Shown here one piece after another: positions 655 to 55,244 of a stretch of DNA of 64,000 bases; the stretch's first letter is position 1, and every line of letters begins with the position of its first letter. The notes under the pieces were generated by a model. It saw nothing but the letters and a program-made list of their open reading frames with translations. It was not told where the DNA came from and did not search any database. The position numbers were made by a program, and so were the translations under genes. This DNA is from Escherichia phage vB_EcoP_PhAPEC7: the sequence record NC_024790.1. One strand, written 5' to 3'.

Positions 655-704
655 GGGTATCCCTTATTTGGGGTTATAAACCCCGAAATGAAACCCTCAA
701 GTTT

Positions 705-734
705 GACCTCCCTACTAATGGGAGGTCTTTTTTT
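705..734 (+). terminator. Rho-independent terminator
   Basis: Hairpin GACCTCCC-tactaat-GGGAGGTC followed by TTTTTTT, just after the stop at 654. Confidence 0.6.
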
Positions 735-759
735 GACTTAAACAAACTGGAGCCAGGAA

Positions 760-1130: not shown

Positions 1131-1457
1131 ATGAAAACTTTATTTGCTGTTGTTCTAGTAGCTTTATCAGTTATGTCATTCGGTGCTCAGGCATCTAGTC
1201 GTGCAACCTTATTGGAAGCTGCTGCTGATTACAAAGCCGATAAGGGAAACTTTTTGAACCAGGGTTACTTCATGGGCATGGTTACCATGGGTGTAGAAGC
1301 AGGAAATAACTGTGTACCTGACAATATGAAGTTAGGGCACATTTTTGACAAAGTGGCCTCTATTATTCTGTATGACCGAAAGGTTAATGCAGTAAAAATA
1401 CCATCAGACATGGTTCTGCTAGCGATTGATACAGCGTATCCATGCGTTAAATCTTAA
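1131..1457 (+). CDS. Hypothetical secreted protein
   Basis: N-terminal signal-peptide-like segment MKTLFAVVLVALSVMSFGAQASS. Confidence 0.4.
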   Translation: MKTLFAVVLVALSVMSFGAQASSRATLLEAAADYKADKGNFLNQGYFMGMVTMGVEAGNNCVPDNMKLGHIFDKVASIILYDRKVNAVKIPSDMVLLAIDTAYPCVKS

Positions 1458-1491
1458 TTAGTAATTCCATTAACTTTAGGAGAGTAAGTAA

Positions 1492-2544: not shown

Positions 2545-2551
2545 TCACAAC

Positions 2552-31800: not shown

Positions 31801-34800
31801 AATATTGTTAGCACCCATGATGGTATCGAACTTCTGTTGAGCATAGTAACGGTCAGCAGGGTTAGTACTATCTGGGTCAGCCATGAATGATTCAACGGTC
31901 AGGTTCTTAGTGACGTGTGCATAGTATTCCTGTGCACGAGAAAGAGCAGCCGGACTAATAGCAGCTTCAGTAGCCAGTGCAGCAACGATATTAGTGAACA
32001 GTCGCTGTTCCTGCATATTCATAGTGAAGCCATGAGCCTGAACATCACGAGTTACTTTAGTTGCATTCACTACTGCATCAGAGAACTTACCTTTACGAAT
32101 TACTTGCTGTACTGGTTCAGAACCAATGTAGTTAATAATCAGCTTATCAAAGGTCTGTCCCAGCTCTTCCAGACGAGTATTGTCACCATACGCCTTGTTA
32201 TGGAACAAGGTAGTGTCTTTGGATACAGCAGCCGTAGGAGCCTGTCCACGCATAACCACAGATGAGTTAAACAGTAAGCCAGAGAACATATCATCTGCAT
32301 TAGCAGGTGCTTTCTTGCGACCAAATACCAGACGTTTGATTGCCTCATATACAGACTGAACCATAGTTTTCAGTGCTGTGGTTTTCTTCTGCTTACCAAT
32401 CAGTTCACGGTTAGTTAAGCCCCAAGCCATATACTCATTCAGTGCAGCAGCTTTAGCCATTGCTGGTTCAATAAAGCCATTAGACAAGTGACCGTTAATA
32501 GTATTAAGTGCATCAGCATATGCTTCACGTACTGCCGGAGATTCATTCTTAACATCCAGAGTACGGAACTGGTTCATCAAGTCTTCAATATTCTGGATTG
32601 CTTCATTAGGAGTACCCTCATAGTGAGCCAGTACGGATTCAAAAGTGGAAGCATGTACCAATTCATGAACCAGAGTCTCTAAGGAAGAGGTAACTAAGTA
32701 GATGGTCTTATCATCAAAGTTAGTCCAGCCATATGCATTACCAGCTTCGGCAGCTTCAATATCTTTTGGTGCTGGGCGAGTAATGTTCTTCTCAATAGCA
32801 TAAGCATCCAGTTGAGCAGGAGTACCGTAAACAACCTTATAGTCTTTGGCAGCAAGGGATTTCTGTACTTCTTTCAATACTGCTTGCTGTTCAGGAGTCA
32901 TCTCTTTAGCCAGTTTAGAAATGGCAGTATTGGACAACAGACGTACACCAGACTTAAGTACACGACCAACCTGTTCCATCGCTGGTACTTCTTTCACTGG
33001 TTCTGCTTTAGCAGCACGTACTGCATTACGACGCTTATTTAATTCAGCATCAAACAGCTCGTTCAGCTTAGCTACTTGCTGGTCTACAGTCAGACCTTCC
33101 AGAGAAATTTTACCGTTATTCACATATGGAGCACCTACAGCAGCCATCTGGTCAACAGTGGTCTGTACCTGGTTCATTACTTTGTGGCGAATATCTACAC
33201 CCAGAGCAATATTACGTAGGTTACGTTCAATCTGTTCAGCACCTGCACGAAGTAAGTCATCGGTAGCACCCTCACGTTGGTCATATTCCAGAGCAGACTT
33301 AGCGATAGCCTGTTTGGTTTCATCTGACAGTTTGCTGAAGTCTACATTCTTCATGAACTTAGCGTAGGAGTCATAAACATTCTTGATAGGGTTCCCCTGC
33401 CAGGAAGTGTATACAGCCTCATTTGCTTTACGACTCGCATCAGTGATGTCGTTGATACCAATGTTCATACCATCAAAGATTTTCAGGGTATTCTTCGGTG
33501 CACCTTTCATAGTAGAAAGAGTCTGCATCATCATGCCATCACCAGTACCGATGGTCATAAATGGAATACCTGCAACACCTGCTTGTGAAGGAGCATAGAT
33601 GCTCATTGGCACACGCATACGGTCATCTAAGTTGGTAGCCAGTACTTGGTTAGCAACATCAGTATTCTCACTACCAGCAATGTAGAAAGTCTGTGAACCA
33701 GTCTCAATCATTGGAGCCAGTGGAGATAATGATTCCTGGATTTCATTCAGTTCTTTCTGTGTTAAGAAATCACCCTTCTTCCAGGTTGGGTCTTTTTCTT
33801 TTTCTGCCAACTTAGTCTGTACTGCTTGCTGGAACATATCCTGCAATACCAGAGACTGAATCTGAGTAGCCTTCTGCAAGTTCTCGGTAGAGTGCATCAG
33901 ACCTTCACCAACAGTATTACGAATACCAGTTCGCATTGGTTCAACGAACAGGTGGAGCATGTTCTCCTGTAAGTTCTTCAGGGCATTACCAGATACGGTA
34001 AATTTCTGAGGGTCTAACTTACCAGTCAGAGCACCATCTACCTGCTGAATAGACAATTCACCTTTACGCATAACTGGAACATTGCCTGTCAGTGCTTCCA
34101 TAGAAGTAAGGAAAGTATCCAGCATAGCCTGAGCATCAGCCTCAGACGCAGCCTCCTTACCAAACATTGCCATAGCTGGGGAAATGCTAGGGTCAGCAGC
34201 CCGTGCTTGCAGAACGTCACTGAAGCGTTCGTAGATGGTGTCAGTAATTGCACTGACCATCTTCCCAGCAATACCACGAGCACCGGAACCATAGATGGTA
34301 ATGGTCAGTGGGTTTTTAGCGATACCACGTTTCAGGTCCAGAGTACCATCTTCATTCAGATTAAAGTCTTTAATGAACAGGTCCATTAACTTCTGAAGAT
34401 GATTCATCTGGCTCATAACCGGAACGTTGTTACGGTAAGTAGTACGTAACTCATTTAGTGCTTGTTGCAGACCATTAGTAGATGCTTCATACAGGTCAAC
34501 ACTGTCATCCTGTGAACGATGTTCGTTCATAGTCTTACCGGCTTTACCGAAGAACAGACCACCTTTAGCAGTATTCTTAATCCAGTCTGGAGTGAACTTA
34601 CCCCCAGTCATTAATACCATTGCGTTAATCGGGCCGTTGGTTACACCATCAGCTTCAACGTACAGTGGAGTAGTAAAGTTGGCACGGTCATCACTGTTCA
34701 GGTAACGGGCATATTCCATCAGAGCCATGAGAGCTACGAAGGATTTGTCACCACCCAGGGAGGTCTTCAGAATATCTACTGCATCAGCAGGTAAGTGACC

Positions 34801-37800
34801 AGACTTATCGAACTCAACCATCATATCAACAGCAGGTTTCAGATTACCTTCCAGAGCCTTGGTCAACTTTTCAGACATAGCTTCACGGGACATGTTATGT
34901 ACCTTGATGCCTAATGCCTGAGCCAGTCCTAACTGGAAGTCAGAGACTGCTTGGCTGTTTTCATTACTCAAGTCAATAGTAGAGAAGGTTGGCAGAATTG
35001 CTTCACGAACCAGCTTACTGGATTGTGGGTTATTCTTACCTAGCATCTGCATACGACCTACACGGGTCATGTTGTAACCATAGTGAATAGGAGTATCCAG
35101 ACCATTCTCTTGTTCCCGTATCTGGCTGATTACACCAAACAAGGAATCATATGCCATAGACACGGACAGGTTTTTACCCTCCAGTGACTTAGCAGTGTTC
35201 ATATTCAACAGTTCTGGATTAAGAGAACCAGCACCCATCAGTTCCAGAATGTTGTCACGACCTAAAGCTTCATAGAAGTTAACCATCGGCATGTGTACAC
35301 GGAACTCAGTAGCTTGTTCAGCTTTCAGTGCAGCTTTCTGTTCCGGGGTATTTTTAACAGCAGGGTTACGTAACTGAGTTTGAGCCACGGAAGGAATGTC
35401 GTCACCGAAGTACATTTTCTCTTCTGGTTCTAAGAGGACAGCTTCCTCAATAGCAGTAGGGAATTTGTTAATGGCATCATTGTCATCCAGCTTCTCAATG
35501 GTATACAGACCAACAGTCTTATTAGAGTCTGGGTCAATCTCAGACACATCCAGCATAGACTCTTTAACTTCACCCATTTCAATGAGGGAAGACAGAATCT
35601 CTGTAGCCATTGCCATTGGGATACCTTTTGTGTAACCCAGTGGTGCATTAGGATTACGATTCAAACCCCAATAAGATTCAATCTTCTGAGCCAGTGAGTT
35701 AGTAGCTTCGACCAGAGTCTGGGCATTCTCAAACTCAGCCAGAATACCTTCTGGTAACAGAGATGCTTCCACACCAGTAATAGCAGCTACGTCTTTCATG
35801 TCTTTAATGGCAGCATTCTGTGTAGCAGTCAGTCGCCATTGCAGTCCGGCAAGTACAGCAGTCTCTAACAACTGATCATTGAACTTAAAGGTGTCACCAT
35901 CTCGTTCAACGATATTCAGCAATTTGCCACCTACCCAACGGTTAGCTTCAGTACCTTCTGCAAAACGTTTACCAACGTTCTTATTAGCAAGGAACTTAAC
36001 CAGACGTTCAGACAAAGTAGTCTTCAGAGTTTCCCCAAAGTCCATCAAGTCCTGATAACGTTTCATCACATCACTAGTGAGAGCGTTATTTTCTTTTTGA
36101 GTGAATGCCTCAAAGCGAGCAGCAGAAGACAGTGCTTGCTTAATATCAGCCAAAGGAGATTCAGAACCAATGGTACGGGACTTAGGTTCTTCCGGTAGGG
36201 TAAATGCTTTCAGGAACTGGTTCGGTGTCTTTTCATTGTTATAGACAGGGAACACTGTTTCCATTTCTGTTTTAGTTTCAGCTACTTCCTGGATGGTATC
36301 CTCATTAGTGAGGGTAGCTTCTACTGTTTCGGGCTTAGTAGTAGAGACTTCTTCTGCTTTTGGACTAGTCTCCTTAGTAGGAGCAGTCTTATTTTCTACC
36401 ACTGGTTTAGCTTTAGGCTGTACAGTAGTAGTGTCCTCTTGCACTGGTGCAGGAGTTTCATCAACCTGATTCACTGGTTCATTAGTCTGTTGAGACTGAG
36501 TGGCATCAAGACCACCTTGACGGAACTCTTTAACTACCTGGGCAACTGGCTTGTTCAGACGTGAATCCAACGAGGTAACTTTCACATGAGAAACATTAAG
36601 CTCCGGGTAAGCCGTAGCAAGTGCGTTAGCAATATCAGCTACGGTTTTGGCCTCCAGTCCTACTTGCTGGGCAAACTTAACAGACTTGGTATCGTAAGGA
36701 TTGACACCGAGGCCAGTACGACTACGTACCCATTCACGGGAAGGCGAGAGAGCCTGATAATGGACAGACTTATTCTTATCCGCATTCCCCGAAATCAGAT
36801 GCTCATTCAACGCTCCGACCTTATTCTGCATGTGCTGGGCGAACTTCATAAAGTCGCTCAGATAAGCGGAGGCCAAATCGAAGTTACCAGAGTTATACGC
36901 AGAACGAATGCGTTTCGCATGTTGCAACGCAGAGTACTGTCCTTCATTAGAACGAGACTCATCGGTTTTAATCTGTTTACTAACAATGTCCTGAGGACGT
37001 AAGCCCAGTTCTTCTGCTTTAGCGTCGAACTCACGTGCACCCTGTAACAAGGCAGCAGCAGATTGCAGGGCAGCACGTTGACGATTCCCTAATGTAATCT
37101 TACCTTCACTTGCATGTTTAAGAACCATGTTCACTGAATCTGCATCCAGTACTTCTGGAGACACATCAGCAGCCATAGCAATGTTGTTTGCTTGGGCTTG
37201 GTTAGCTTCTTCAGTAGCTTTCAGTTTACCTGCCTCAGCCTGTTCCTGAATCATGGAATGGATAGCACGGAATGCACGAAGTACTTTAGGGGTATTCTGT
37301 ACGTTAGCCATCAGGCCGGAGAACTGGTCTACGATTGCAGCAGCAGGGGAACCTTGTTCCAGATTAGCCAGAGCACCTGGGTCACGGTTAATGAAGTTAT
37401 CCATAGACATGATGTTGTCATACATCTGAATTGCAGCTTCCATTTGAACGTTAGGGTCTTCGGCAGTATTAACCAAGTCAGCCATCTTCTGAATAGCTTC
37501 TACACGGTTAGTGGAACCAGAAACAGCTTCACGGATTACTGGGTTAACTTGTTCCAATTCTACTGGGTCAAACTTCATTGCCTGAGTTAAATCAGCAGCA
37601 TACTGGGTAGCAGCAGCTTTCTCTTCTGGAGTGATATCCATTGCATCTACTGCTTCTTGTACAGTTGCTTGTGCTTGCTCTGCTTGAGCAGCAGCTTCCT
37701 GTGCAGCAGCATTAACCGTAGCATCAGCTACAGGGGATGCTTGTTCATTACGCTTAGCAACTTCTTCACCACGTTGAACCAGGATGTTAGTAAGGGGAGA

Positions 37801-39234
37801 TGTAGCTTTTGCTAATGTTTTACCAACCAGAGAAGCACCAGCCAGAGTAGTACGAAGAGTAGGACCAGCAGCAGCACCGGCAGCTTTAACAGTTGCACCA
37901 GGAGCCTGAGCAACACCAGCACTACCGAAGCCATAGAGTGCACCCAGACCTGCTTGCTCACCGACTCCCTTGAGGGTATCTCGGGATGCATCAACATTCT
38001 CTTTGATTGCAGTGTTTTGTGCGAACTGACCAAAGCCTGACTGAATACCTTCCTCTACAGTTTCACGCAGCATATTAGAACCAGCACCAGCCAGTGAACC
38101 TACCTTAAGTGGGTTAAGTTCAAATCGAGATACCAGTGGACCGGTAGCAGCAGCAACTGGAGCAGTTAAGCCAGCAGCAGTAATACCTGTTTCAGATGCA
38201 GTCTGACGACGTGCTTCATCAGGAGATAAACCATCAGCAATATGTTGTTGGTAAACAGGAGACTTACTTGCCAGTTCTTGATGGGACATCTTCATGATTT
38301 CAGAAGCAGTCTGTTGGTATGCACCACCAGCTTCCATGCCACCGATTGCAATAGCAGGTGCAACAACACGACCAGCAGACAATGCAACCTGTGCAGGGCG
38401 TGAACCTAATCCAGCAGCTAAGGTAATACCCTTAACAGCTTTATCACCACCTACCATTACTTTACCGAGTGCAGATACACCACGGATAAGTGGACCACCA
38501 GTAAAGAGGGAACCAACACCTTCACTAAGTCCGTCGGAAGCAGCCATACCATTATCAAGTGTATTAGCAACAGAATCGAAAGCATCACGACCAATACGAG
38601 ACAGGGAGGCAACCAAATCGCTCTCCCCGTTTTTGACATCTTGTTCATAGAGTTTCTGGTTCTTTTGAGCAGAAATCTGGTTCTGATTCTGAACAACTTT
38701 ACGAGTAGCATTCAGTGCATCAGATTGTAGATTGTGTACACCTTCATTCAACCAATCCATCCCGGAAGCAATGGATGCCCCGGCATTATCATTGACCAGA
38801 CCTGTGCCAAGAGCAGCAATGCCCCCAAGGGTATTAGCAACACCAAGACCAACACCAGAAAGAGTATCGCCAAATGCTTCTGCGTTAGTACGTTGTTTAG
38901 ATAAGTCCTGACGTACAACATCAGCAGCATTAGCTCGGCTATTAAGAATTTGTAGACCTTGCTCATTACCGTATTTATTAATGATTTCTAATGGGGAGGC
39001 TTGAGTGAAATCTGCCTGAAGTGAACCTGGTTCGAATGCACCGATTCCAAGATTACCTACTCGTCCAGTCTGGAGATTGTAAGCGTTCTCTGGGGTTAAT
39101 TGGAAAGGGCTTTGCCCTTGTGCAGCTTGCTTCTGGGAGGTTGCAGTAGAGACATCGACTTGCTTAGCATTAGTGATGCTGTCTGCGAAACCTGCCAGAC
39201 GGTCAAATGTTGACATAGCATGTTTCCTGTTCAA
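28864..39234 (-). CDS. Virion-encapsidated RNA polymerase (N4 gp50-like, 3456 aa)
   Basis: Giant ORF of N4 vRNAP size at the start of the late block. Contains a T7-like single-subunit RNAP motif B, R-x3-K-x7-YG (RGIAKNPLTITIYGSG, encoded at about 34283-34330), and a motif A-like YVEADGVTNGP. Confidence 0.85.
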   Translation of the reverse strand: MNRKHAMSTFDRLAGFADSITNAKQVDVSTATSQKQAAQGQSPFQLTPENAYNLQTGRVGNLGIGAFEPGSLQADFTQASPLEIINKYGNEQGLQILNSRANAADVVRQDLSKQRTNAEAFGDTLSGVGLGVANTLGGIAALGTGLVNDNAGASIASGMDWLNEGVHNLQSDALNATRKVVQNQNQISAQKNQKLYEQDVKNGESDLVASLSRIGRDAFDSVANTLDNGMAASDGLSEGVGSLFTGGPLIRGVSALGKVMVGGDKAVKGITLAAGLGSRPAQVALSAGRVVAPAIAIGGMEAGGAYQQTASEIMKMSHQELASKSPVYQQHIADGLSPDEARRQTASETGITAAGLTAPVAAATGPLVSRFELNPLKVGSLAGAGSNMLRETVEEGIQSGFGQFAQNTAIKENVDASRDTLKGVGEQAGLGALYGFGSAGVAQAPGATVKAAGAAAGPTLRTTLAGASLVGKTLAKATSPLTNILVQRGEEVAKRNEQASPVADATVNAAAQEAAAQAEQAQATVQEAVDAMDITPEEKAAATQYAADLTQAMKFDPVELEQVNPVIREAVSGSTNRVEAIQKMADLVNTAEDPNVQMEAAIQMYDNIMSMDNFINRDPGALANLEQGSPAAAIVDQFSGLMANVQNTPKVLRAFRAIHSMIQEQAEAGKLKATEEANQAQANNIAMAADVSPEVLDADSVNMVLKHASEGKITLGNRQRAALQSAAALLQGAREFDAKAEELGLRPQDIVSKQIKTDESRSNEGQYSALQHAKRIRSAYNSGNFDLASAYLSDFMKFAQHMQNKVGALNEHLISGNADKNKSVHYQALSPSREWVRSRTGLGVNPYDTKSVKFAQQVGLEAKTVADIANALATAYPELNVSHVKVTSLDSRLNKPVAQVVKEFRQGGLDATQSQQTNEPVNQVDETPAPVQEDTTTVQPKAKPVVENKTAPTKETSPKAEEVSTTKPETVEATLTNEDTIQEVAETKTEMETVFPVYNNEKTPNQFLKAFTLPEEPKSRTIGSESPLADIKQALSSAARFEAFTQKENNALTSDVMKRYQDLMDFGETLKTTLSERLVKFLANKNVGKRFAEGTEANRWVGGKLLNIVERDGDTFKFNDQLLETAVLAGLQWRLTATQNAAIKDMKDVAAITGVEASLLPEGILAEFENAQTLVEATNSLAQKIESYWGLNRNPNAPLGYTKGIPMAMATEILSSLIEMGEVKESMLDVSEIDPDSNKTVGLYTIEKLDDNDAINKFPTAIEEAVLLEPEEKMYFGDDIPSVAQTQLRNPAVKNTPEQKAALKAEQATEFRVHMPMVNFYEALGRDNILELMGAGSLNPELLNMNTAKSLEGKNLSVSMAYDSLFGVISQIREQENGLDTPIHYGYNMTRVGRMQMLGKNNPQSSKLVREAILPTFSTIDLSNENSQAVSDFQLGLAQALGIKVHNMSREAMSEKLTKALEGNLKPAVDMMVEFDKSGHLPADAVDILKTSLGGDKSFVALMALMEYARYLNSDDRANFTTPLYVEADGVTNGPINAMVLMTGGKFTPDWIKNTAKGGLFFGKAGKTMNEHRSQDDSVDLYEASTNGLQQALNELRTTYRNNVPVMSQMNHLQKLMDLFIKDFNLNEDGTLDLKRGIAKNPLTITIYGSGARGIAGKMVSAITDTIYERFSDVLQARAADPSISPAMAMFGKEAASEADAQAMLDTFLTSMEALTGNVPVMRKGELSIQQVDGALTGKLDPQKFTVSGNALKNLQENMLHLFVEPMRTGIRNTVGEGLMHSTENLQKATQIQSLVLQDMFQQAVQTKLAEKEKDPTWKKGDFLTQKELNEIQESLSPLAPMIETGSQTFYIAGSENTDVANQVLATNLDDRMRVPMSIYAPSQAGVAGIPFMTIGTGDGMMMQTLSTMKGAPKNTLKIFDGMNIGINDITDASRKANEAVYTSWQGNPIKNVYDSYAKFMKNVDFSKLSDETKQAIAKSALEYDQREGATDDLLRAGAEQIERNLRNIALGVDIRHKVMNQVQTTVDQMAAVGAPYVNNGKISLEGLTVDQQVAKLNELFDAELNKRRNAVRAAKAEPVKEVPAMEQVGRVLKSGVRLLSNTAISKLAKEMTPEQQAVLKEVQKSLAAKDYKVVYGTPAQLDAYAIEKNITRPAPKDIEAAEAGNAYGWTNFDDKTIYLVTSSLETLVHELVHASTFESVLAHYEGTPNEAIQNIEDLMNQFRTLDVKNESPAVREAYADALNTINGHLSNGFIEPAMAKAAALNEYMAWGLTNRELIGKQKKTTALKTMVQSVYEAIKRLVFGRKKAPANADDMFSGLLFNSSVVMRGQAPTAAVSKDTTLFHNKAYGDNTRLEELGQTFDKLIINYIGSEPVQQVIRKGKFSDAVVNATKVTRDVQAHGFTMNMQEQRLFTNIVAALATEAAISPAALSRAQEYYAHVTKNLTVESFMADPDSTNPADRYYAQQKFDTIMGANNIEFDAQGRSSLLPTFVGLAMVSEEVRNVLANIPVMKADKKSGNTVDAMLTNIGTAAMSSLNARVAGDTKATNVQEGMDALAQTIMQTSLNAQSFYDSVATPSGNAIDRANQYLVDSIDALSTRALESAREVAANTKNPLVKGAAHAAQLVAAIATEKNGAIVAEGVMAAMNQGKVWQPFHDLINDLTGRTKSNASVYDLIKAVRAQVQADRQQFREHLPTTIASKFSRKLTNDEWKAMHTGMGKTDLAVLRDTMSLAEIRDLLSDQKIVDREVNKLEADLQKQAGRNWPLINRKSKQLAQYMINGTVGNNLLRNATAISRMLGERQAARSTVDVAQLDKLITLYALEAMNKSDREMLSSLAQTEVDGMDFATSYLVGQRKDEMAKAKSDMRATLNQYKGHIPSENKQGVNLIVAEDNQFADLIEKSYVRLGTYQGSSANRGPARSYYFAPVQAQAPFSQGILQNVRDTAGGVDLGTGFTMGSMVAGRITDKPSVDRITKALARGERGNEPLLPVYDDKGNVVAYEQSIDPNMLKHIEGENHLARAIGIWRGRQVEEAKAQRFNDMLIENLHSMYENDIKMSASNKSQYVNLLGSKLDPVTADALKLMNSETRQKAESLFGEGELWVRRDMLNDALGYRAASVGDAWSGNSRWSPETLDTFKKAMLGVFGNRAYKYTMGGENLVQNLVKEAKTLIVVKSVVVPAVNFLANLYQMVARGVPVKNIAKSIPQKTAEINQYLKSRLRQVDAEAELRAATNPNQIRKLKAEIQSITDSHKRMSIWPLLEAGEFSSIADAGIGRDDILITEGKLHEYMEKLADKLPKSVRTAGRYALITKDTALFQGIQKTVEYSDFIAKAIIYDELTQRKGKTREEALGRVTEEFINYDRLPGRFRGYMESVGLMWFYNFKIRSAKVAVSMIRNNPVHAAMAMLAPTPTMFGNVGLPIQDNIFSIAAKGGLDYSWGFGQGLRAHNLNPWMNLVN

Positions 39235-39310: not shown

Positions 39311-41275
39311 TTACCGATTTTGTCTTGGTTGCATATACTCAGGCAGTCCTTGTGCCTGACGAAGGTATCGTTCAGCACGCTCCTTGTTTTCTTTCTCAAC
39401 TGCCCGGTCTACAGAGGCCTGAGATTGAAAGTTACGTGGAGCCAGGTTAGTTGGGTCAGTCTGTACTTGTGCCTGTGCAGCTTGGAGCATTGCAGCAGCT
39501 TTAGTAACAGCCTCCTGTCGTGCAGGTAACAATGCAGTAAGACCAGTTTGTCCGGTGTTAATCTTATTCTGAGTATTTGTCAGTGCAGCTACGGCAGCAT
39601 CATATGCAGTCTGTGCTGCTTGAATATTCTGCATAGCCTGAGCACGACCAAGGTTACGTACACTACCCTCCAGTGGTTCTCCCCGTTTCACACCCTCAAT
39701 TAACTGTTCTACCTGACGGTCATTAAGACGCATACCATTACCGGCTTCATTGGTAATGAATGGGTTAACTGCATCAATAGCACGACTAATATAACCCTCC
39801 GGTACACCAGTCTGTGCACGTTGCATAACAGCAGCAGCCATAGCTGGCGACATATTCCCACGTTGGGAAATATCGTTCAGTCGGTTCAGTACCCAGTTAC
39901 GGTCAGCACCTTTAAAATCACCTTCCAGCAGACGGTTAGCAATCTCGCCTACTGGGGTATTATCAGTGACTGTACCAAGGAAGTCAGTATTAAGACTACC
40001 GGTATTATCCTGCATAGAACGTGTGCCAATCATACCCTGAGCCAGAGTAGATACTGCCTGATTACCTTGGTTATTCTGAACCATAGCGAGTGGGTCAGCC
40101 CCTACTTCAGCTTGGGCAATAACAGGTTTAATCTGTTCCCAAGTCATATCCTTATAAGCACCTGGGGTAGAGTTAGGCAGAGCAGCCCAGGTATCTTTAA
40201 GGTTGCCATTCTTACGAGCCTCGAAGATAGCCTTACCAATCTTATCCTGGTTCTCAGGAGAAAGAGGCTGGCTTTGCCAGTCTGAACCAAGAACTTTGGG
40301 AGCGAAATCTTTCAGAGTAGCTTGGTTAATCTGGAATGCCCCAACAGGCGAAGCACCTTGGTTCGTCTTCATACCATCCTGGTGTTTAATTACATCACCA
40401 ATACTCATTTGAGTAATAGGAGTAGATGTACCAGCAAACTGGTAGGTAACATCGTAAGGGGAACCCTGTCGTGTACCAGCAGTACCCGGAGCAGACGTAG
40501 CACCAACATTATTACCGTAAACACCCGGGTATGCTCGTGCAAGCATTTCCTGCAAACGTGCCTGTGCAACCGGGGACAGGTTCTTACTATATGCTTCTGC
40601 CAACAGACGGGCATCATTAGGGTTCTCAGCACCACGAGTAATCTGTGACATTACGCCCATAGCTGCCTGACTATCGGCATCATTACGCTGAGCAACACCC
40701 AAATCAAAACGGTTCTGTGCCTGATTAATAGCCTGACCACCTTGGCCTTGAAGACGACCCAGCATGTCCAATTGCTGGTCAGCAGGGAGTGCAGACAGTG
40801 CATCACGGGTCTGACTTAATGCAGCATTAATACGGTTCTGGTCACCGGACTGATAAGCCTCAGACAGTAAACGAATAGCTGGGGAAGCATTATCTAATGC
40901 AGTGTTAGTATCCTGTAAACGACCAAAGCGATATGCATTGTAGTCATTGGTTCCCTGCTGTCCTTGTTGCGTCAGTAATGTACCTGCTCGCTCATCCAGA
41001 TTCTGGAGAGTACGCTGATTTACCAGTGAAGGATCAACCCCCTGAAACAGTGCACCAGATGCCAAAGCATTACGGTATTCATTCGGGTCTTGGTACTGCA
41101 TAGCATTCATCATGACGGCATTGCCAGCCTCCTGCTTGGCAGCGTTCTGGAAATTACCCAGTGCATCACTTAAGCCGGAGGTGGCGTTACCAATCATGCT
41201 GCCAAATGTGCGAATGCTGTCACCTACTCCAGAGAAGTTAGGTGCATCAACATTACGCCATGTAATTTGAGCCAT
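39311..41275 (-). CDS. Virion structural protein (N4 gp51/52-like by position)
   Basis: 654 aa, Gln/Asn/Ala-rich; synteny only. Confidence 0.4.
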   Translation of the reverse strand: MAQITWRNVDAPNFSGVGDSIRTFGSMIGNATSGLSDALGNFQNAAKQEAGNAVMMNAMQYQDPNEYRNALASGALFQGVDPSLVNQRTLQNLDERAGTLLTQQGQQGTNDYNAYRFGRLQDTNTALDNASPAIRLLSEAYQSGDQNRINAALSQTRDALSALPADQQLDMLGRLQGQGGQAINQAQNRFDLGVAQRNDADSQAAMGVMSQITRGAENPNDARLLAEAYSKNLSPVAQARLQEMLARAYPGVYGNNVGATSAPGTAGTRQGSPYDVTYQFAGTSTPITQMSIGDVIKHQDGMKTNQGASPVGAFQINQATLKDFAPKVLGSDWQSQPLSPENQDKIGKAIFEARKNGNLKDTWAALPNSTPGAYKDMTWEQIKPVIAQAEVGADPLAMVQNNQGNQAVSTLAQGMIGTRSMQDNTGSLNTDFLGTVTDNTPVGEIANRLLEGDFKGADRNWVLNRLNDISQRGNMSPAMAAAVMQRAQTGVPEGYISRAIDAVNPFITNEAGNGMRLNDRQVEQLIEGVKRGEPLEGSVRNLGRAQAMQNIQAAQTAYDAAVAALTNTQNKINTGQTGLTALLPARQEAVTKAAAMLQAAQAQVQTDPTNLAPRNFQSQASVDRAVEKENKERAERYLRQAQGLPEYMQPRQNR

Positions 41276-41287
41276 GATGGGTTCCTA

Positions 41288-41752
41288 TTAACGAGTTAGT
41301 TCATTAGCTGCAATGTAAGCATCAGCCGAAGACTGGTCACGATTCTCTGCTGTAGCACGACTACGAGCACGGTCTTCCAGTGCAGTGTTATAAGACTTAA
41401 TCTGGTTATTCAGGTTAGTGTTAGTAACACTCTTAGTGAAGTTCAACTGGTCTTTGGCTAACTTGTTAGCCTGGAAACCACCGTAGATATTCGCTAAGGA
41501 ACCAATTGCACCAAGTCCTAGTTGGAAAGTAGGTACGTTCATACCCAACTGATTAGCTGAACCAGATAAGAAGGAAGTTGGGGAAGCCACTCCTGTACCT
41601 GCATTCATACCAATAGCTGCACCTGGGTTATAGTTCATAGCTGGGGTATTAAAGTTCTGATTGTTATTAGACATCCAAGACATAGCAGCTGGCTGTGGGG
41701 TTTGGTTGCCTGTTAAGAATGACAAATCCATGGGGATTCTCCTGTTAAACAA
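41288..41752 (-). CDS. Hypothetical virion protein
   Basis: 154-aa ORF in the structural block. Confidence 0.35.
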   Translation of the reverse strand: MFNRRIPMDLSFLTGNQTPQPAAMSWMSNNNQNFNTPAMNYNPGAAIGMNAGTGVASPTSFLSGSANQLGMNVPTFQLGLGAIGSLANIYGGFQANKLAKDQLNFTKSVTNTNLNNQIKSYNTALEDRARSRATAENRDQSSADAYIAANELTR

Positions 41753-44399
41753 GGTCAGTATTAAGAGTCATATCAGAGTAGCTGCCAACCATGTTTAAAG
41801 ACATGTCAGCTATATCCGAACCAGTCATGAGAGTACGTGATAGAAATGAATCCATCGACTCCATTGACACAAATTGCATAGGGTCAATTACACCCTGTCC
41901 AGCAGTACCAAACATTTCTTCATACTGCTTATTGATTGCCATCATATCAGTATTGTACTGCTGCATTACATTCTCTGCTTTCTGAATAGTAGCAGCCGTA
42001 GATGCATTAATATACTGGCTAATACCATTACCTACTGAACTGGTAAGCTGCATGATGTTCTGAGCATTCATCATTTCACCAACTAAAGTAGACATAGATG
42101 CACCTGTAGACATGGCAGTACCAACGTTCATGGCCACCATTGAAGCAATAGCAGCAATGATAAAACCTAGCTTATCACCAAACAGTGAAGTGGATACTTT
42201 AGTGATAATAGATACCAGAATCATTGCAGCAATGGCGTTTGCTACAGCACCCACTATTACAGCAGCTAACCCAACAAAGCCAAGCGATGCACCAACTGCA
42301 CCGTATGCCCCAAGGATACCTGCACCACCAGCACCCATAGTGAATACGGATACAACAACAGCAACTACAACAACCACAATCTTAAAGGCAGACGATGTAT
42401 ACCACTTCTGTTTAACCTTCTTATATGAGTTCATCACTAAGTAGGAACAGGCAGTAGACAGCTGTGTACTACGAGTCAGTGACATTGAACGGTAGATGTT
42501 AGTGTGTAGTGGAATAATGAATCCACTCTCCTCTGCATCACCCATTGCTTCGGCAACATCAATGTTTACTGACTTATTTTTATATACCCTGTTGTTGTGG
42601 TTTAGCCCCAGTACCCTAAGTTTACGGTAGGTGTTGTTACCATCCTGCCAAAGCAACTCATACTCCTGCATAGAGTAAAACGTAGTAGTAACTTCCAGTT
42701 TCTTAGTCGAACCAGAGTTACTGGCAGTACGTATGTTCTTACGGGTAAGAGTTATATCTCCTGCATACCTGGCTCGAAGTTGTCCTTGTTTAGCACCAGT
42801 CCATGCTTCACCGGAATGAGTAGTTTCAGACACATAGTTCCAACCAATGGTCATGTCGTATTTGTACTGCTTATTACTATGTACCCTAAACTCTCGCTTA
42901 GGTATAACGGGGTATTCTGGCAAGGGTGGAGGTGTTCCAACAGTTTGACCTTCATGCCTGTTCCACCATTCTACGTATGCATCGACTGCATCATTTGCTG
43001 CCTGATAACCTGCAATCACTGCTTCCAGTGTGGGGTAGGTTGGGTCAGGTGGGAATGCTTCAGTAGCCATTTGAAAGAAACGGTAGATGTATTCCTTAGC
43101 AGTATCTTCCGGAGTATTAAGAGATACACCGAATGTGCCATAGATGTACTGAATATCACCTATGTCCTCATTCTTCTTAAGCTCGGTTACTACTTTATCA
43201 AGTTTACCGCCTGTAGCTTTATAGAGTGCTTTCTTACAGTGGGGGTAGATTGGGTCATTCTCCACCCATTGTTTATCATTCCTGATTGGAATGAAGGGGT
43301 AAAATCGGTTATCAGTAGCTTCAGTCTCAAACAGTGAATCGAGTGCAACGTTGCCTGAGTTCTGCTTATAGATAAGCATCTTAGGTGTACCAACAGCAGT
43401 CATCTCAGTATCCGTACGAGTAGTCTGAGATGAGTACTTACGAACCAGTGTCTCTGTAGTTGTGGTGATTGTATCTGTGCGAGTAACACCACCACCTAAA
43501 TCAACAACATTGGTTGTTACAGTAGTACTGGATTGAATCTCACCAAACTTTGTATGAGTCATTACCCTATCAGATATAACTACAGTTATATCATCTGGTT
43601 TCTCAGTGAATCCTCTGCGATAAACCTTAACGTAGGAGTTCCAGTTATCCACACTTGGTTCAGTAACAGTGCTGTCTTCATCCGGTCTACCATCAGAGTA
43701 AACAGAATGAGTCTGTATAGTCTTAGTAAGATTGGCTGTATTAGCTGTCGTATCACTTGAGATGGTAGTCCACAACAAAGTAGATGGTAAGTCATCTTCA
43801 TCATCGTAGACAGTAATCGGCCCTACTACAGGTGGGTTGGTAGTAGGGGACTTATAGAATGAGTAATCAGCATAGAGATACAAAGCACCTGGTTCAAAGT
43901 TAGTAGGTGTGAATGTAATGGTAGAACCTCCATCCAGGGAGGTCATAGTAATTTCATTGGTATCTTCATCAATGTCTACGTCGAATCGTTCCATGATTCG
44001 ACTTGGGGCATTCTCATAAAGATACTGGTCACACCATTGCTCAAAGTCAGCAAAGCCAATCTCTGCTGCCTGAACATAGACAGATTCCCCAGCAGGTGGG
44101 GTAATTTGACCCTCTATAACAGTAGGGTCAATCTTAGCCAGTACACCTAAAGAAGAACCAGCCATACCAACTTCTGAGTCATAGTGGTTCTTACTCCAGC
44201 TGGAGAACAGTCGCATACGAATACCCGGCCCATTCAGATAACTATCGGAGATAGTGTCTGCCATAGTGAATCCTGTATCAGCAACAATCTTACCGATGAC
44301 TACAGTCTTCATATAGTTTGGACGTTTGTGTATATCCCCTGCCATGTTATAGACAGAGGATGCTACGTATACTTTGGTCTTCCCACTGAATAAGCCCAT
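41745..44399 (-). CDS. Large virion protein with C-terminal multi-pass membrane segment
   Basis: 884 aa; C-terminal third has several Gly/Ala/Val-rich hydrophobic helices (KIVVVVVAVVVSVFTMGAGGAGILGAYGAVGASLGFVGLAAVIVGAV...). Confidence 0.4.
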   Translation of the reverse strand: MGLFSGKTKVYVASSVYNMAGDIHKRPNYMKTVVIGKIVADTGFTMADTISDSYLNGPGIRMRLFSSWSKNHYDSEVGMAGSSLGVLAKIDPTVIEGQITPPAGESVYVQAAEIGFADFEQWCDQYLYENAPSRIMERFDVDIDEDTNEITMTSLDGGSTITFTPTNFEPGALYLYADYSFYKSPTTNPPVVGPITVYDDEDDLPSTLLWTTISSDTTANTANLTKTIQTHSVYSDGRPDEDSTVTEPSVDNWNSYVKVYRRGFTEKPDDITVVISDRVMTHTKFGEIQSSTTVTTNVVDLGGGVTRTDTITTTTETLVRKYSSQTTRTDTEMTAVGTPKMLIYKQNSGNVALDSLFETEATDNRFYPFIPIRNDKQWVENDPIYPHCKKALYKATGGKLDKVVTELKKNEDIGDIQYIYGTFGVSLNTPEDTAKEYIYRFFQMATEAFPPDPTYPTLEAVIAGYQAANDAVDAYVEWWNRHEGQTVGTPPPLPEYPVIPKREFRVHSNKQYKYDMTIGWNYVSETTHSGEAWTGAKQGQLRARYAGDITLTRKNIRTASNSGSTKKLEVTTTFYSMQEYELLWQDGNNTYRKLRVLGLNHNNRVYKNKSVNIDVAEAMGDAEESGFIIPLHTNIYRSMSLTRSTQLSTACSYLVMNSYKKVKQKWYTSSAFKIVVVVVAVVVSVFTMGAGGAGILGAYGAVGASLGFVGLAAVIVGAVANAIAAMILVSIITKVSTSLFGDKLGFIIAAIASMVAMNVGTAMSTGASMSTLVGEMMNAQNIMQLTSSVGNGISQYINASTAATIQKAENVMQQYNTDMMAINKQYEEMFGTAGQGVIDPMQFVSMESMDSFLSRTLMTGSDIADMSLNMVGSYSDMTLNTDLV

Positions 44400-44400
44400 A

Positions 44401-45243
44401 TTAGTTCAGCCCGTTGTTAGACTTCAGCTTGGTCAGAATGGTATCAATACTTGCATTAGTGAAACCATTAGGTGGGTTCAAGCCTTCATCAATAGTCTTC
44501 TGTGTAATCCATGCATCAGTAAACAGCTTAGATGCTTTAACTTCTGCATCACGTTGGTAAGAAGTAATCTGTTGAGAGTACAACTCTTTCTGCTTACCTA
44601 CGGAACCAGTAACAGTAGCTCCATCGCTTCGGGTATCCAGTGTCTGTGCACGCTGTGCTTCAGTCTGCTCAGTAATCAGTTTAAGCTGTTGAGGTAACAT
44701 CTGGTCAGCGTTAAACAATGCAGCACAGTATGTTTCAGACTCAGTAGCAATCTTCATCTTAGTGAGAGCATATTCACTCTTAGCAGACAGTGCCTGAATC
44801 TTAGCCAGTACAAACTGTGCCTTAGAGGTTGCCAGTTGAACACGTGCAGTAACTGCCTGAATCTGTGCCATAGCAGCAGCCCAGTATGCCTGGTCACGAC
44901 CAAGTAAGAACTGAACAGCATTACTCATGCATGATTCCATCATAGCAATGTATGCTTTGGTGTATTCACCACCGGTAATACGGTTAGCTTTAAACTCAGC
45001 TTTAAGGTGATTGTGTGCAGATTCCATTAATGCATCAAACGTACCACTACCACCTACTTCACGGGTAGTAAGTGATTCATTTGTTACTTTAGTAATAGCA
45101 TCAAAGATTGGGGAATTATCACCACCAGGGATATCCCATTCAGGACCAGACATATCAATGTCAGGGAGGGTAAAGTCATCACCCTTAGTTAACTCTTCTA
45201 GGAGTCGGTTAGCTTCTACCTCAGCAGAACAAGACATAATCAT
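44401..45243 (-). CDS. Hypothetical structural protein
   Basis: 280 aa, coiled-coil-like; synteny. Confidence 0.35.
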
Positions 45244-45313: not shown

Positions 45314-45955
45314 TTAATCGTTCAGGCTACCAGCAGCAATCTGTGCTTGAGCCAGTTGAGCCAATTCTGCTTCAGTCAGCGGAGGCAATACTTCAATGGA
45401 GAACTCGCGTGCTTCTGTTGCACGAATATCCGGTAAGCCATTCTTACCTTTACGAGTCGTAATGTTGATGAACTTACGCTCTTTAAGGAACTCGTAGATA
45501 CAGTACGGAATATGATAACCATTGTCAGTGACTTCACCGAATGGAACAAACTTACGTACAGTACCCATATATTCGTTAGCTACGGTGATAATCTCACCAG
45601 GCAGGTCTTTCTTCTTGGGGTCAAGGTTCTGGATACGTACACGAATCAGTCGAGTCTGTTCTGCACGAATCTTCTGACCCAGAGTCATTTTCTTAACACC
45701 TGCTTCTTGTTTTTCACCCAAAGGATTAACAGCAGCTTCTTTTACTTCTGGTTCATCTTTTGCTTGTGCAGCTTCAATCTTCTCACGAAGTTTCTCAACG
45801 GAGATGTTGTTAGAGAACTTAATATTCATCAATGTTGCACGTTGCTTAAGAACATCAAGTTCGCTAGGCATTGCAATATCGTTAACGGTATCTTCGTTGC
45901 CCTGTACGTCCAGTTCTACGTCAGTGGTCGGTTTATCGTTAATGCTCATGTTCAT
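45314..45955 (-). CDS. Hypothetical structural protein
   Basis: 213-aa ORF immediately upstream (in transcript order) of the capsid gene. Confidence 0.35.
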   Translation of the reverse strand: MNMSINDKPTTDVELDVQGNEDTVNDIAMPSELDVLKQRATLMNIKFSNNISVEKLREKIEAAQAKDEPEVKEAAVNPLGEKQEAGVKKMTLGQKIRAEQTRLIRVRIQNLDPKKKDLPGEIITVANEYMGTVRKFVPFGEVTDNGYHIPYCIYEFLKERKFINITTRKGKNGLPDIRATEAREFSIEVLPPLTEAELAQLAQAQIAAGSLND

Positions 45956-46022
45956 ATTTCCTGTGGTTCAACTAGTTTTATTAAGAGGGGGACTTATGTC
46001 CCCCTTGTTTTATTTAGGACTA

Positions 46023-47225
46023 TTACAGAGGAGCAACAGTCTTAATCAGAGCCAGACGTTCTGGACGTTTAACCAGAATACCGTAGTACCACTTGATGGA
46101 ACTGAAGCCAGTCTCACCATACGGGTCATTACGGTCAGCAGTTTCTCGACCAGGCATCTTAGTCATAATGGAGAACTTAACAGACTTACCATCAGTCTGG
46201 AAGCCAATGGTAGAGAAGGAGTCATCACCAACTACCAGCATCGGGAATACGTCGTAGTGTTCTTGGCCACTAACCATAGAAGAACGGTAACCTGGGTTAG
46301 TAGTAACCTGAGCACCAGCACCTGCCCAATGAAGCATCTCAGGAACCTGGATAATACGGAACTTGTCGATACAACCAATTTCGCCGTTCATCAGAGTACC
46401 AGCATCAGCATAGTGCTGAACCTCAATGAATGCTTTGTTGCCGAACAGGTCTTTCATCGCTTTCAGTTCTGGAACCAGTTCAGAACCAACATACATTACA
46501 CGAGTACCACCAAGTACTTTGGTATCAGTAAGTTTAGAACCAGTGATAATAGTAGTCTGAGTCGGGGTACGGTTCTCAGTAAGAATCTGGTCAAGACGCA
46601 TCAGGTTCTTATAAGAAACTACAGAAGGGGTAGCACCTTCACCAGTGATAGTAGCATCGGAAGTAGCAGCACCTGCATACAGTACAGTACCGGCAGCAGC
46701 CAACAGGTCTTTCTGGAGAACAGCTTCAGTCAACTGTACAGCACCGTTCATCAGTTCACGAGACAGGTGTTCTTTAAGTTGGTCATCAGAATCAAAGTCC
46801 AGAGACTCTTGAGTAAATTCGTAGAAGAAACCGAACTTATGGATGGAACCTTCACGAGACAGACGAGTAAAGCCTACACGGTTAACACGACCACCGTTCT
46901 CTGTCAGCAGAGGCAGTTTAGAGGTGATGTTACCAACGTCTCTGGAAGAACCATACAGGTTACCGTTAACGATGGTAGCACCATTAGCATCAATACCCTG
47001 GTCGTTGATGTTCTTATCGTCGAGCAGTGGAACGTACTCATACACCTTAACAGTCTTACCGTAGTTCTTCGGCATGTTAATGGTGTTAGCCAATGGCATG
47101 AAGTACTGATCTTTACGGGACTGAATAATAGCTTTCTTCAGCCAGTAATAGGTATTCATCTGGTCGGAACCAGCACCATCAATGCTAGATTTCTGACCGT
47201 CAATTGGGGCGTTATAGTTTAACAT
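46023..47225 (-). CDS. Major capsid protein (N4 gp56-like)
   Basis: 400 aa (N4 major capsid protein is about 401 aa) at the expected position between vRNAP-side virion genes and the portal. The overlapping 472-aa plus-strand ORF has antisense-like composition. Confidence 0.7.
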
Positions 47226-47241
47226 ATCATCTTATTCCTGT

Positions 47242-48462
47242 TTAAAGACTACCCGGTACTGGGAGTTTAGCGAAATCTTCATCACTCATAGCTAGTGGGT
47301 TTACAATAGGTGTTGCTTTACGTGTAGCAGCCCGATTAAGGGAAGCTGCTTTAGCTTGCTCGCTGTTAGCCAGAGTCTGCTTAGGTTGTGCTACACGCAC
47401 TACCGGCTGAACTACTGGTTTAACTGCTTGTACCGGTTCAGGCTTAGTCACTCGGTTAAATGCCCCTTGTTGTGCAAGGAGGTTACCGACGTGGTTATAA
47501 GCCTGAATGAACGGAGTACCTACCGGAATCTGGCCTAACATCTGAAGACGGTTCACTTCGTTTGCAATGGTGTCATAAATACCATTCTCACGTTGTTCGT
47601 GAATAGTCTGGAGTAGGCCACGATTCTGGTAAAGAGCATCTTTACTGGCAGCATCCCATGTCGAGCCGATAACACCTAATGTAGCTTGTCCTTCTTGAGT
47701 AGACTTTAAGTCGTCAATTTCGGTTGCAAAATCTGCTTCGGTGTCGGTAACACGGTGATTGCCACCCTGGTAGTTAATTTCCTCATCTGGGTTAAAATCC
47801 AGAGGGTCTGTACCAGAGTCTTTGAGCAACTTCTTAATGGCTTCGGGATTCTTTTTATCCAGGTCAATCAGGAAAGAAAGTTTATCCTCATCCATTAAAC
47901 CGTTGTTCTGTAACATCAGCATTACCTTACGGTAAGGCTTTAGTTCTTGCATCTTACGAGTATAGTTAGCACCCATCTGCATCAGGCTAATGGCCTCCTC
48001 CGGTGAACGGGGAGTAATCACTTTGCCGTTAGCTTTAAAAGGAGCCATCAACTTTTCGTAACTTTCCTTATAGTTGAAGTCAGCAGGCAGACCTTCAGAC
48101 TGTTTGCCTTCTTCTTTCTGTTCCTGGCCTGGTTCAGTAGTAGAAGGTTCAGCTTTAGTAATCGGCTCGCCGTTACTATCAACTTCTGTGTCAACAACTT
48201 TATCATCAACTTTATCAGAAGTTAAAGGATTTGCTGAATCTTCTTCATCTGGTTCGGCTTCAGGGGGGGTTTCTTCGGTTGGTGGGTCTTCAACAGCAGG
48301 GGTGTCAACTTCTTCATCAGGAGTCTGTACGCCGTTGGTTTCTGGGTTGTTCTGAGTGGAAGTGTCTTCCTCAGCAATAATTGCTGGGGCTTCCATATTC
48401 AGAATCTCATCATCCGACATTGCGAGAATGTCGGAAGCTGTGGTTGCAGCTTCCGTAGTCAT
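47242..48462 (-). CDS. Putative scaffolding/assembly protein
   Basis: 406 aa with acidic Pro/Glu-rich N-terminus; between portal and capsid genes. Confidence 0.35.
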   Translation of the reverse strand: MTTEAATTASDILAMSDDEILNMEAPAIIAEEDTSTQNNPETNGVQTPDEEVDTPAVEDPPTEETPPEAEPDEEDSANPLTSDKVDDKVVDTEVDSNGEPITKAEPSTTEPGQEQKEEGKQSEGLPADFNYKESYEKLMAPFKANGKVITPRSPEEAISLMQMGANYTRKMQELKPYRKVMLMLQNNGLMDEDKLSFLIDLDKKNPEAIKKLLKDSGTDPLDFNPDEEINYQGGNHRVTDTEADFATEIDDLKSTQEGQATLGVIGSTWDAASKDALYQNRGLLQTIHEQRENGIYDTIANEVNRLQMLGQIPVGTPFIQAYNHVGNLLAQQGAFNRVTKPEPVQAVKPVVQPVVRVAQPKQTLANSEQAKAASLNRAATRKATPIVNPLAMSDEDFAKLPVPGSL

Positions 48463-55195: not shown

Positions 55196-55244
55196 ATAAA
55201 CCTCTTTGTTTTTCTAGGAAACCCCTCCGAAGAGGGGCCGTATA

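What the first reader, a model, noticed from the sequence alone, without database searches (positions are those of the whole stretch)
41745..44399. 884-aa virion protein with a Gly/Ala-rich multi-helix membrane domain
The C-terminal third contains several consecutive hydrophobic helices of small-residue composition, unusual for a capsid-associated protein. Given that N4-like phages must eject a 3456-aa polymerase with the DNA, a pore- or conduit-forming role is plausible.
Basis: inference. Interest (0 to 1): 0.45.

Follow-up and report, generated by a model that had tools for sequence, protein, structure and literature searches.

The report
N4-type phage tail plug (gp53)
This gene encodes the single-copy protein that corks the tail tube of an N4-like E. 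coli phage; its oily Gly/Ala/Val-rich helices are the cork itself, a role already solved by cryo-EM for phage N4, so the finding is real but ordinary.

Summary
The ORF is real: 41745..44399 on the minus strand, 884 aa. It carries a strongly hydrophobic, almost charge-free stretch at aa 672-765 (A 19%, V 18%, G 14%), which is far beyond chance and conserved in every homologue examined.

The protein is the full-length orthologue of phage N4 gp53 (54.6% identity, same gene order). Cryo-EM (PDB 9YFT; Bellis et al. 2026) shows N4 gp53 to be the single-copy tail plug. N4 residues 29-56 and 670-716 map to 29-56 and 674-720 here. They fold into a "hydrophobic knot" of short helices that corks the 12-mer gp54 tail tube. 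The last ~160 residues lie unresolved in the tube lumen.

So "virion protein with hydrophobic helices" is right, and "membrane pore/conduit" is not supported, though membrane insertion after unplugging has never been tested.

One real difference from N4: this Gamaleyavirus-type phage has no gp64/gp65 sheath, the N4 partner that holds the plug. What retains and releases the plug here is unknown.

The parts
41745..44399 (-). gp53-type tail plug gene, 884 aa plus stop
   Evidence: ORF listing and translation. phmmer against PDB gives 9yft_FA 'Gp53', E=0, over 1-883. tblastn with N4 gp53 gives 54.6% identity over 1-883. It matches PHROG 2220, labelled 'unknown function'.
44232..44315 (-). aa 29-56: the N-terminal helix pair that forms part of the hydrophobic knot in N4
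   Evidence: N4 residues 29-56 map 1:1 onto aa 29-56 here. AF2 predicts helices at 29-40 and 46-55. The knot is defined in PMC13434306.
43398..43850 (-). aa 184-334: the long beta-sheet 'feather', exposed and the most variable part of the protein
   Evidence: AF2 predicts four strands of 24-29 residues at 211-334, with pLDDT 82-93 over aa 211-330. This region is deleted in the ~740-aa homologues, matching the published statement that DEV gp74 lacks the feather. It has the lowest identity among relatives, 0.51 against 0.70 overall.
42240..42380 (-). aa 674-720: equivalent of N4 residues 670-716, the C-terminal part of the knot that corks the tail tube
   Evidence: Pairwise mapping to N4 gp53 and the N4 structure description. 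G694, G697, G703, G707, G710, A713 and G717 are conserved.
   Evidence: Hydropathy and composition, Hessa-scale sums, shuffle test, and conservation in 40 of 40 homologues. Across the 40 homologues its mean identity (0.57) is exceeded only by the flanking aa 601-671 (0.60) and equals aa 1-70. Among the closest relatives it is the most conserved region (0.95), and second (0.83) to aa 601-671 (0.86) in the 66-75% set.
41748..42104 (-). aa 766-884: Met/Ser/Thr/Asn/Gln-rich C-terminal tail with invariant E847, F852, R855 and T856; the equivalent N4 residues are unresolved in the tail lumen
   Evidence: Composition, invariant columns, AF2 pLDDT mostly below 50, and the published statement that the last ~160 N4 residues are lost in the lumen.
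44401..45243 (-). gp54-type tail tube protein (280 aa), the tube that the plug closes; its stop codon is 1 nt before the plug's ATG
   Evidence: 67% identity to N4 gp54. PDB matches 9d80_C (E 8.7e-150) and 9lc0_K/9yft 'Gp54' (E 1.9e-124). The junction reads TAAtATG.
41288..41731 (-). gp52-type ejection protein (147 aa from the ATG at 41731, preceded by AGGAG), the outer-membrane pore former in N4
   Evidence: 57% identity to N4 gp52, sequence read directly, and bilayer data for N4 gp52.
39311..41275 (-). gp51-type ejection protein (654 aa), the periplasmic tunnel in N4
   Evidence: 48% identity to N4 gp51. It matches PHROG 6126, 'virion structural protein'.
28864..39234 (-). gp50-type virion RNA polymerase (3456 aa as listed; the N4 alignment starts at 39216)
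   Evidence: 66% identity to N4 gp50 over 1-3500 and the ORF listing.

Best explanation
The gene encodes the tail plug of a Gamaleyavirus-type (G7C/PhAPEC5-like) schitovirus, the orthologue of N4 gp53.

Proposed arrangement and mechanism:
1. One copy sits at the distal opening of the dodecameric gp54 tail tube.
2. [quoted passage not shown]
3. The flagged hydrophobic helices (about aa 674-720), together with N-terminal helices 29-56, fold into a compact hydrophobic knot that corks the tube and keeps the DNA and ejection proteins inside.
4. The rest of the hydrophobic stretch and the conserved C-terminal tail (aa ~721-884) run up the tube lumen, probably among the stored copies of gp52.
5. On host recognition the plug is pushed sideways and its C-terminus is pulled out like a ripcord.
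6. gp52 (outer-membrane pore), gp51 (periplasmic tunnel), vRNAP and DNA then leave in that order.

What is shown and what is inferred:
- Shown here: homology, synteny, domain layout, fold match, and conservation of the hydrophobic domain.
- Shown in the literature for N4 and DEV, and inferred here: position, copy number and the knot.
- Hypothesis even for N4: the ripcord step and the fate of the C-terminus.
- Unknown here: what holds and releases the plug, because gp64 and gp65 are absent.
For: - Sequence homology: phmmer to 9yft_FA 'Gp53' gives E=0 over 1-883, and to 9ze4_M 'N4 gp53-like protein' gives E 1.5e-17.
- Synteny: tblastn of N4 proteins on the window finds gp50-gp57, gp59 and gp67 all present and collinear, with gp53 at 54.6% identity. 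The St11Ph5 record labels the same gene 'gp53'.
- Knot residues: they map 1:1 and are highly conserved. Identity to N4 is 82% over aa 1-40 and 65-78% over aa 601-800, against 30-50% in the exposed parts.
- Hydrophobic domain: present in 40 of 40 homologues and among the most conserved parts of the protein, and also present in other schitovirus subfamilies.
- C-terminal module: it has 1004 representative clusters, and in the 150 listed it runs to within about 13 residues of the C-terminus, except one split match.
- Published structure and mechanism: PMC13434306 and PMC12892993.
- Single copy: one chain each in 9yft and 9ze4, against 40 chains for gp54.
- Co-expression: the tail-tube stop codon lies 1 nt before this ATG.
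Against: - No direct data exist for this phage or its genus. In Moo19, the nearest sheath-less relative with a cryo-EM structure, the tail-tip density was too weak to assign.
- gp65, the N4 partner that anchors the plug, is absent, so the gating geometry must differ.
- AF2 does not model aa 688-884 with confidence, since pLDDT is mostly below 50. The knot is therefore transferred from N4, not reproduced here.
- The knot in N4 uses only about half of the hydrophobic stretch. The structure does not explain why aa 721-765 are equally hydrophobic and conserved.
Confidence: 0.9

Rival explanations
1. One reading: the hydrophobic helices form a membrane pore or conduit through which vRNAP and DNA pass.
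For: - The segments are as hydrophobic as true transmembrane helices, with a Hessa-scale sum of 0 or below for two 19-aa windows.
- GenBank annotators of relatives called it a '4 transmembrane helical domains containing protein' and a 'membrane protein'.
- Small-xxx-small ladders and GxxxG motifs at 703 and 741 are typical of packed membrane helices.
- The protein sits at the tip that meets the outer membrane first.
Against: - There is one copy per virion, and a single chain cannot line a ~35 A channel.
- The helices are short and knotted inside the tail tube in the solved virion.
- The plug is still on emptied particles.
- Channel formation is demonstrated for gp52 and gp51 instead, and both are encoded next door.
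Confidence: 0.04
2. Dual role: the domain is a cork in the virion, and after unplugging the released hydrophobic tail (aa ~674-765) dips into the outer membrane. There it would anchor the tail tip or seed the gp52 pore. This would resemble the hydrophobic loops of the phi29 tail knob or the hydrophobic segment of T5 pb2, which are stored in the tail lumen and inserted on infection (these analogies come from general knowledge and were not tested here).
For: - The hydrophobic stretch is about twice as long as the part used in the N4 knot. Its second half is equally conserved, including invariant N721 and G741 and near-invariant K743 and G745, yet has no assigned structure.
- Its hydrophobicity exceeds what a soluble core needs.
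- The published model already has the C-terminus pulled out at the membrane surface.
- In this phage no sheath protein covers the plug.
Against: - There is no experimental hint in any paper found.
- The plug re-seals or stays on emptied N4 particles in vitro.
- The conservation could be explained entirely by packing against gp54 and gp52 in the lumen.
Confidence: 0.18
3. Assembly role: the hydrophobic helices anchor gp53 in the infected cell's inner membrane, or to a chaperone, as the nucleus on which the gp54 tube polymerises. The corking would then be secondary.
For: - The gene is tightly coupled to the tail-tube gene.
- A single-copy protein at the tube end is well placed to act as an assembly initiator.
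- A strongly hydrophobic C-terminal domain must be shielded somehow before it is incorporated (inference).
Against: - There is no evidence for membrane-bound tail assembly in schitoviruses in the papers read.
- In the DEV work, loss of the plug-stabilising fibre gp56 gives DNA leakage from virions, which fits a sealing role for the plug complex.
Confidence: 0.05

Closest known systems
Phage N4 gp53, tail plug of the tail-gating complex (PDB 9YFT; Bellis et al., Nat Commun 2026, PMC13434306; also Zheng et al., Structure 2025, which is not held in the library)
   Same: - Full-length homology: E=0 and 54.6% identity, 884 against 885 aa.
- The same position between the tail tube gp54 and the ejection protein gp52.
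- The same N-terminal helices, feather region, hydrophobic stretch and C-terminal tail.

   Different: N4's plug is clamped by domains D9-D10 of the sheath and receptor-binding protein gp65. This phage has no gp64 or gp65 and carries tailspikes instead. The exposed feather and aa 481-600 are strongly diverged.
Pseudomonas phage DEV gp74, tail plug (PDB 9ZE4; PMC12892993)
   Different: Only 12-13% identity in the structural alignments. DEV gp74 lacks the beta-feather, and the ~740-aa homologue class lacks aa ~184-331. It is held by the gp56-gp55-gp54 receptor-binding fibre.
Schitovirus ejection proteins gp52 and gp51 (DEV gp73 and gp72; functional analogues of T7 gp14 and gp15)
   Same: They are virion-borne, partly hydrophobic, stored in or near the tail lumen, and encoded in the same gene block.
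   Different: They are present in about 12 copies, are ejected, form nonameric or decameric channels, and have measured conductance in bilayers. There is no sequence relationship to gp53.
P22 gp26 and Sf6 tail needles (podovirus tail plugs)
   Same: They have the same job, sealing the tail channel after packaging. The DEV authors themselves drew this analogy.
   Different: They are trimeric coiled-coil needles with no hydrophobic domain and no homology (general knowledge; not tested here).

Membership tests
N4 gp53 / DEV gp74 tail-plug family (PHROG 2220) | Full-length sequence homology to N4 gp53 | tested here: met
   phmmer to 9yft_FA gives E=0 over 1-883. tblastn gives 54.6% identity. PHROG 2220 matches at E=0 over 1-883.
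N4 gp53 / DEV gp74 tail-plug family (PHROG 2220) | [quoted passage not shown] | tested here: met
   The window order on the minus strand is gp56, gp55, gp54, gp53, gp52, gp51, gp50. The same order holds in St11Ph5, N4, Pollock and Vibrio D520.
N4 gp53 / DEV gp74 tail-plug family (PHROG 2220) | Plug core fold | tested here: met
   [not shown]
N4 gp53 / DEV gp74 tail-plug family (PHROG 2220) | Hydrophobic knot elements: N-terminal helices 29-56 plus a C-terminal hydrophobic segment (N4 residues 670-716) | tested here: met
   Both segments are present and map 1:1. The hydrophobic segment is conserved in 40 of 40 homologues. The knotted 3-D arrangement itself was not reproduced, because AF2 pLDDT is below 50 there.
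N4 gp53 / DEV gp74 tail-plug family (PHROG 2220) | [quoted passage not shown] | not testable with these tools
   Shown for N4 and DEV by cryo-EM. A gp53-like protein was detected in Moo19 virions by mass spectrometry, but its density was not assigned.
N4 tail-gating complex (gp53 + gp54 + gp65) | A sheath and receptor-binding protein gp65 (D9-D10) that clamps the plug | tested here: not met
   No gp64 or gp65 homologue is in the window: tblastn finds nothing at E 1e-3 or below, and phmmer --max gives a best E of 0.65. The syntenic slot holds a 711-aa tailspike and a 914-aa gp66-like protein. The St11Ph5 annotation lists no gp64 or gp65 in the corresponding gp63-gp67 slot of the stretch shown.
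Phage ejection / pore-forming proteins (N4 gp51 and gp52, T7 gp14-gp16 type) | Multi-copy, ejected into the host, and forms membrane channels | not testable with these tools
   The literature on the homologue points the other way: one copy, retained on emptied particles. Channel activity was measured for gp52 and gp51 only.
Transmembrane glycine-zipper motif ((G/A/S)xxxGxxxG or GxxxGxxx(G/S/T)) | A strict motif within the hydrophobic helices | tested here: not met
   There is no strict match in this protein, only GxxxG at 703 and 741 and small-xxx-small ladders. 32 of 40 homologues do have a strict match.

The most novel reading that the evidence does not exclude
In sheath-less Gamaleyaviruses the gp53 plug is the exposed tip of the tail and has to be released without gp65. 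Its conserved hydrophobic tail, stored inside the tube, would be a latent membrane-insertion element. After triggering it would enter the outer membrane to anchor the tube and seed assembly of the gp52 pore, making the plug the first component of the ejectosome rather than only a stopper.
Probability: 0.15. Interest if true: 0.55.

Novelty: new member of a known kind. Interest (0 to 1): 0.2.

Why it matters
It lets a gene that GenBank records mostly label 'hypothetical protein', and that PHROGs lists as 'unknown function', be annotated as the tail plug across Gamaleyaviruses, several of which are candidates for therapy or biocontrol.

It also corrects a tempting misreading. Transmembrane predictors and some annotators call it a membrane protein, whereas the solved homologue shows a proteinaceous cork.

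The open point is how the plug is held and released in phages that lack the N4 sheath protein gp65. That bears on how O-antigen-dependent N4-like phages sense the outer membrane, for which secondary receptors are seldom identified. Whether the unexplained second half of the hydrophobic domain ever touches lipid is a small, directly testable question.

Tried and rejected
- Pfam gave no family for this protein or most of its neighbours.
- A strict glycine-zipper motif is not present in this sequence.
- AlphaFold2 with a 40-sequence alignment could not model aa 688-884, where pLDDT is mostly below 50. The knot could therefore not be checked independently.
- A search for an N4 gp64 or gp65 (D9-D10) equivalent among all 407 six-frame ORFs of the window found nothing.
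- A search with the C-terminal module alone, looking for other protein architectures, found the same C-terminal placement among the 150 listed hits; proteins of ~670-970 aa predominate and the shorter entries look like fragments.
- Zheng et al., Structure 2025, the first N4 paper naming gp53 as the plug according to PMC12892993, is not held in the library.
- A literature search for cryo-tomography of N4 infection showing the fate of the plug found nothing beyond the papers already read.
Full report
**1. The observation**

An ATG-initiated ORF of 884 codons lies at 41745..44399, on the minus strand. The plus strand is closed in that frame.

Its hydrophobic part is aa 672-765, window 42105..42386 on the minus strand.
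- The Kyte-Doolittle 19-residue maximum is 2.59, against 1.17 anywhere else in the protein.
- A 60-residue run (aa 674-733) has no charged residue or His.
- Composition of aa 672-770 is A 19%, V 18%, G 14%, I 10%.
- One of 20,000 shuffles reaches an uncharged run of that length.
- A simple Hessa-scale sum is 0 or below for two 19-residue windows and +1.95 for a third. Elsewhere the minimum is +9.2.

The sequence would therefore be called three to four transmembrane helices by any predictor. GenBank annotators of two relatives did exactly that.

**2. What the protein is**

Pfam has nothing, and PHROGs places it in family 2220, 'unknown function'. The Protein Data Bank, however, holds a full-length homologue: 9yft chain FA, 'Gp53', 885 aa, E=0, aligned 1-883. 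It also holds a second, 9ze4 chain M, 'N4 gp53-like protein', E 1.5e-17.

The window comes from a Gamaleyavirus-type phage. The protein is 98% identical to a 'hypothetical protein' of phage PhAPEC5 and 93-96% identical to the listed Gamaleyavirus-type relatives, including St11Ph5.

Running the N4 proteins against the window shows complete collinearity for gp50, gp51, gp52, gp53 (54.6% identity), gp54, gp55, gp56, gp57, gp59 and gp67. The St11Ph5 record carries the same N4 numbering.

The tail-tube gene (44401..45243) ends one nucleotide before this gene's ATG. The gp52 homologue starts 14 nt after its stop, behind an AGGAG.

**3. What is known about gp53**

Bellis et al. (Nat Commun 2026, PMC13434306) identified N4 gp53 by focused cryo-EM and LC-MS as the tail plug. 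[quoted passage not shown] The plug is clamped by domains D9-D10 of the sheath and receptor-binding protein gp65, giving a 12:6:1 mismatch. It is seen on both full and emptied particles. The authors propose that receptor binding displaces it sideways and that its C-terminus acts as a 'ripcord' for the gp52 copies stored in the lumen.

The DEV paper (PMC12892993) maps the homologous plug gp74. There it is held by the gp56-gp55-gp54 fibre instead.

The conduit is made by other proteins. gp52 and gp51 form channels in planar bilayers, and gp51 forms a decameric tunnel.

**4. Transfer to this protein**

The N4 knot residues map to aa 29-56 and 674-720 here. They lie in the best-conserved stretches: 82% identity to N4 over aa 1-40 and 65-78% over aa 601-800, against 30-50% in the exposed parts.

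An AlphaFold2 model built from 40 homologues has mean pLDDT 72.7.
- The core, and four very long strands at aa 211-334 (the feather), are mostly modelled confidently (pLDDT blocks 73-93).
- aa 688-884 is helical, but pLDDT is mostly below 50.
- The fold is therefore specific to this family.

The shorter (~740 aa) homologues lack exactly aa ~184-331. This agrees with the published remark that DEV gp74 lacks the feather.

**5. Conservation**

The hydrophobic domain is present at the same place in all 40 aligned homologues. Identity there is 57%, against 35-47% in the core.

Among closer relatives it is the most conserved region or nearly so, while the feather and aa 481-600 are the most variable. 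That pattern fits an exposed variable surface and a constrained cork.

Specific small residues are fixed. G707, N721 and G741 are invariant. G694, G697, G703, G710, A713, G717, K743, G745 and G766 are nearly so. This indicates defined helix packing rather than mere greasiness.

The gp53-position proteins of the distant phages Pollock (Humphriesvirinae) and Vibrio D520 have the same layout.

The C-terminal module alone retrieves 1004 representative clusters. In the 150 listed it runs to within about 13 residues of the protein's C-terminus, apart from one split match.

**6. Verdict on the interpretation**

'Virion protein' is supported by homology: N4 LC-MS and density, and Moo19 virion mass spectrometry.

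'Capsid-associated' is wrong, because the protein is at the tail tip. 'Membrane domain' is not what the solved virion shows. 'Pore or conduit' is contradicted by three points: the single copy, retention of the plug on emptied particles, and the demonstrated channel activity of gp52 and gp51, which are encoded next door.

Two things are not excluded.
- Only the first half of the hydrophobic stretch is used in the N4 knot. The second half (aa ~721-765) is equally conserved and has no assigned structure.
- Nobody has tested gp53 on lipids.

I give about 0.15-0.2 to a secondary, transient membrane contact after unplugging.

**7. What differs from N4**

The window has no homologue of N4 gp64 or gp65.

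Their slot holds a 711-aa tailspike. Its N-terminus is of the G7C gp63.1 type, and its body matches tailspike 4 of myophage CBA120. The slot also holds a 914-aa protein sharing only the first ~72-79 residues with N4 gp66 and the first 379 with the Moo19 tail fibre.

The partner that holds the plug, and the trigger that releases it, must therefore be different here, as they are in DEV. [quoted passage not shown] This is the only part of the locus that still holds an open question.

**8. Novelty and score**

The kind is known and structurally solved (2025-2026). This is an unannotated member in a genus where the plug has not been visualised.

A specialist would not be surprised, so I score interest at 0.2. 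The most novel reading still open is that the plug doubles as the first membrane-inserting ejectosome element in sheath-less schitoviruses. I give it probability about 0.15 and moderate interest if true.

Noticed in passing
window 53060..57989 (-), and the whole window for gp64/gp65: No homologue of the N4 sheath proteins gp64 or gp65 is present (tblastn; phmmer best E 0.65). The slot is filled by a 711-aa tailspike and a 914-aa gp66-like protein. The protein that clamps the plug in N4 is therefore missing, and the plug-retaining partner in this phage is unknown.
   Followed up: partly
window 53060..55195 (-), 711 aa: This is a mosaic tailspike. aa 1-172 match the N-terminal adaptor of the G7C gp63.1-type spikes (4qnl, 4oj5). 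aa 20-711 match 'tailspike protein 4' of the unrelated myophage CBA120 almost end to end (5w6h_A, E=0, 1238 bits). This suggests exchange of a receptor-binding module between phage families.
   Followed up: no
window 47242..48462 (-), 406 aa: This N4 gp57 homologue (58% identity) falls in PHROG 2120, labelled 'tail length tape measure protein'. The same label is propagated in the N4 and St11Ph5 RefSeq records. That is an odd name for a gene sitting between the portal and the major capsid protein in a short-tailed phage, and is probably a mis-annotation.
   Followed up: no
window 41288..41752 (-): The mechanical ORF call starts the gp52 homologue at a TTG (41752) that overlaps the plug gene. 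The likely true start is the ATG at 41731, preceded by AGGAG, which gives 147 aa and matches where the N4 gp52 alignment begins.
   Followed up: yes
[not shown]
   Followed up: partly
literature: PMC13434306: The abstract says gp51 forms the outer-membrane complex and gp52 the periplasmic tunnel. The results and discussion say the opposite: gp52 is the outer-membrane complex and gp51 the tunnel. I followed the body text.
   Followed up: yes
window 45804..47222 (+), 472 aa: A long open frame lies antisense to the major capsid protein gene (46023..47225, minus strand). It is most likely a non-coding shadow ORF. I did not examine it.
   Followed up: no
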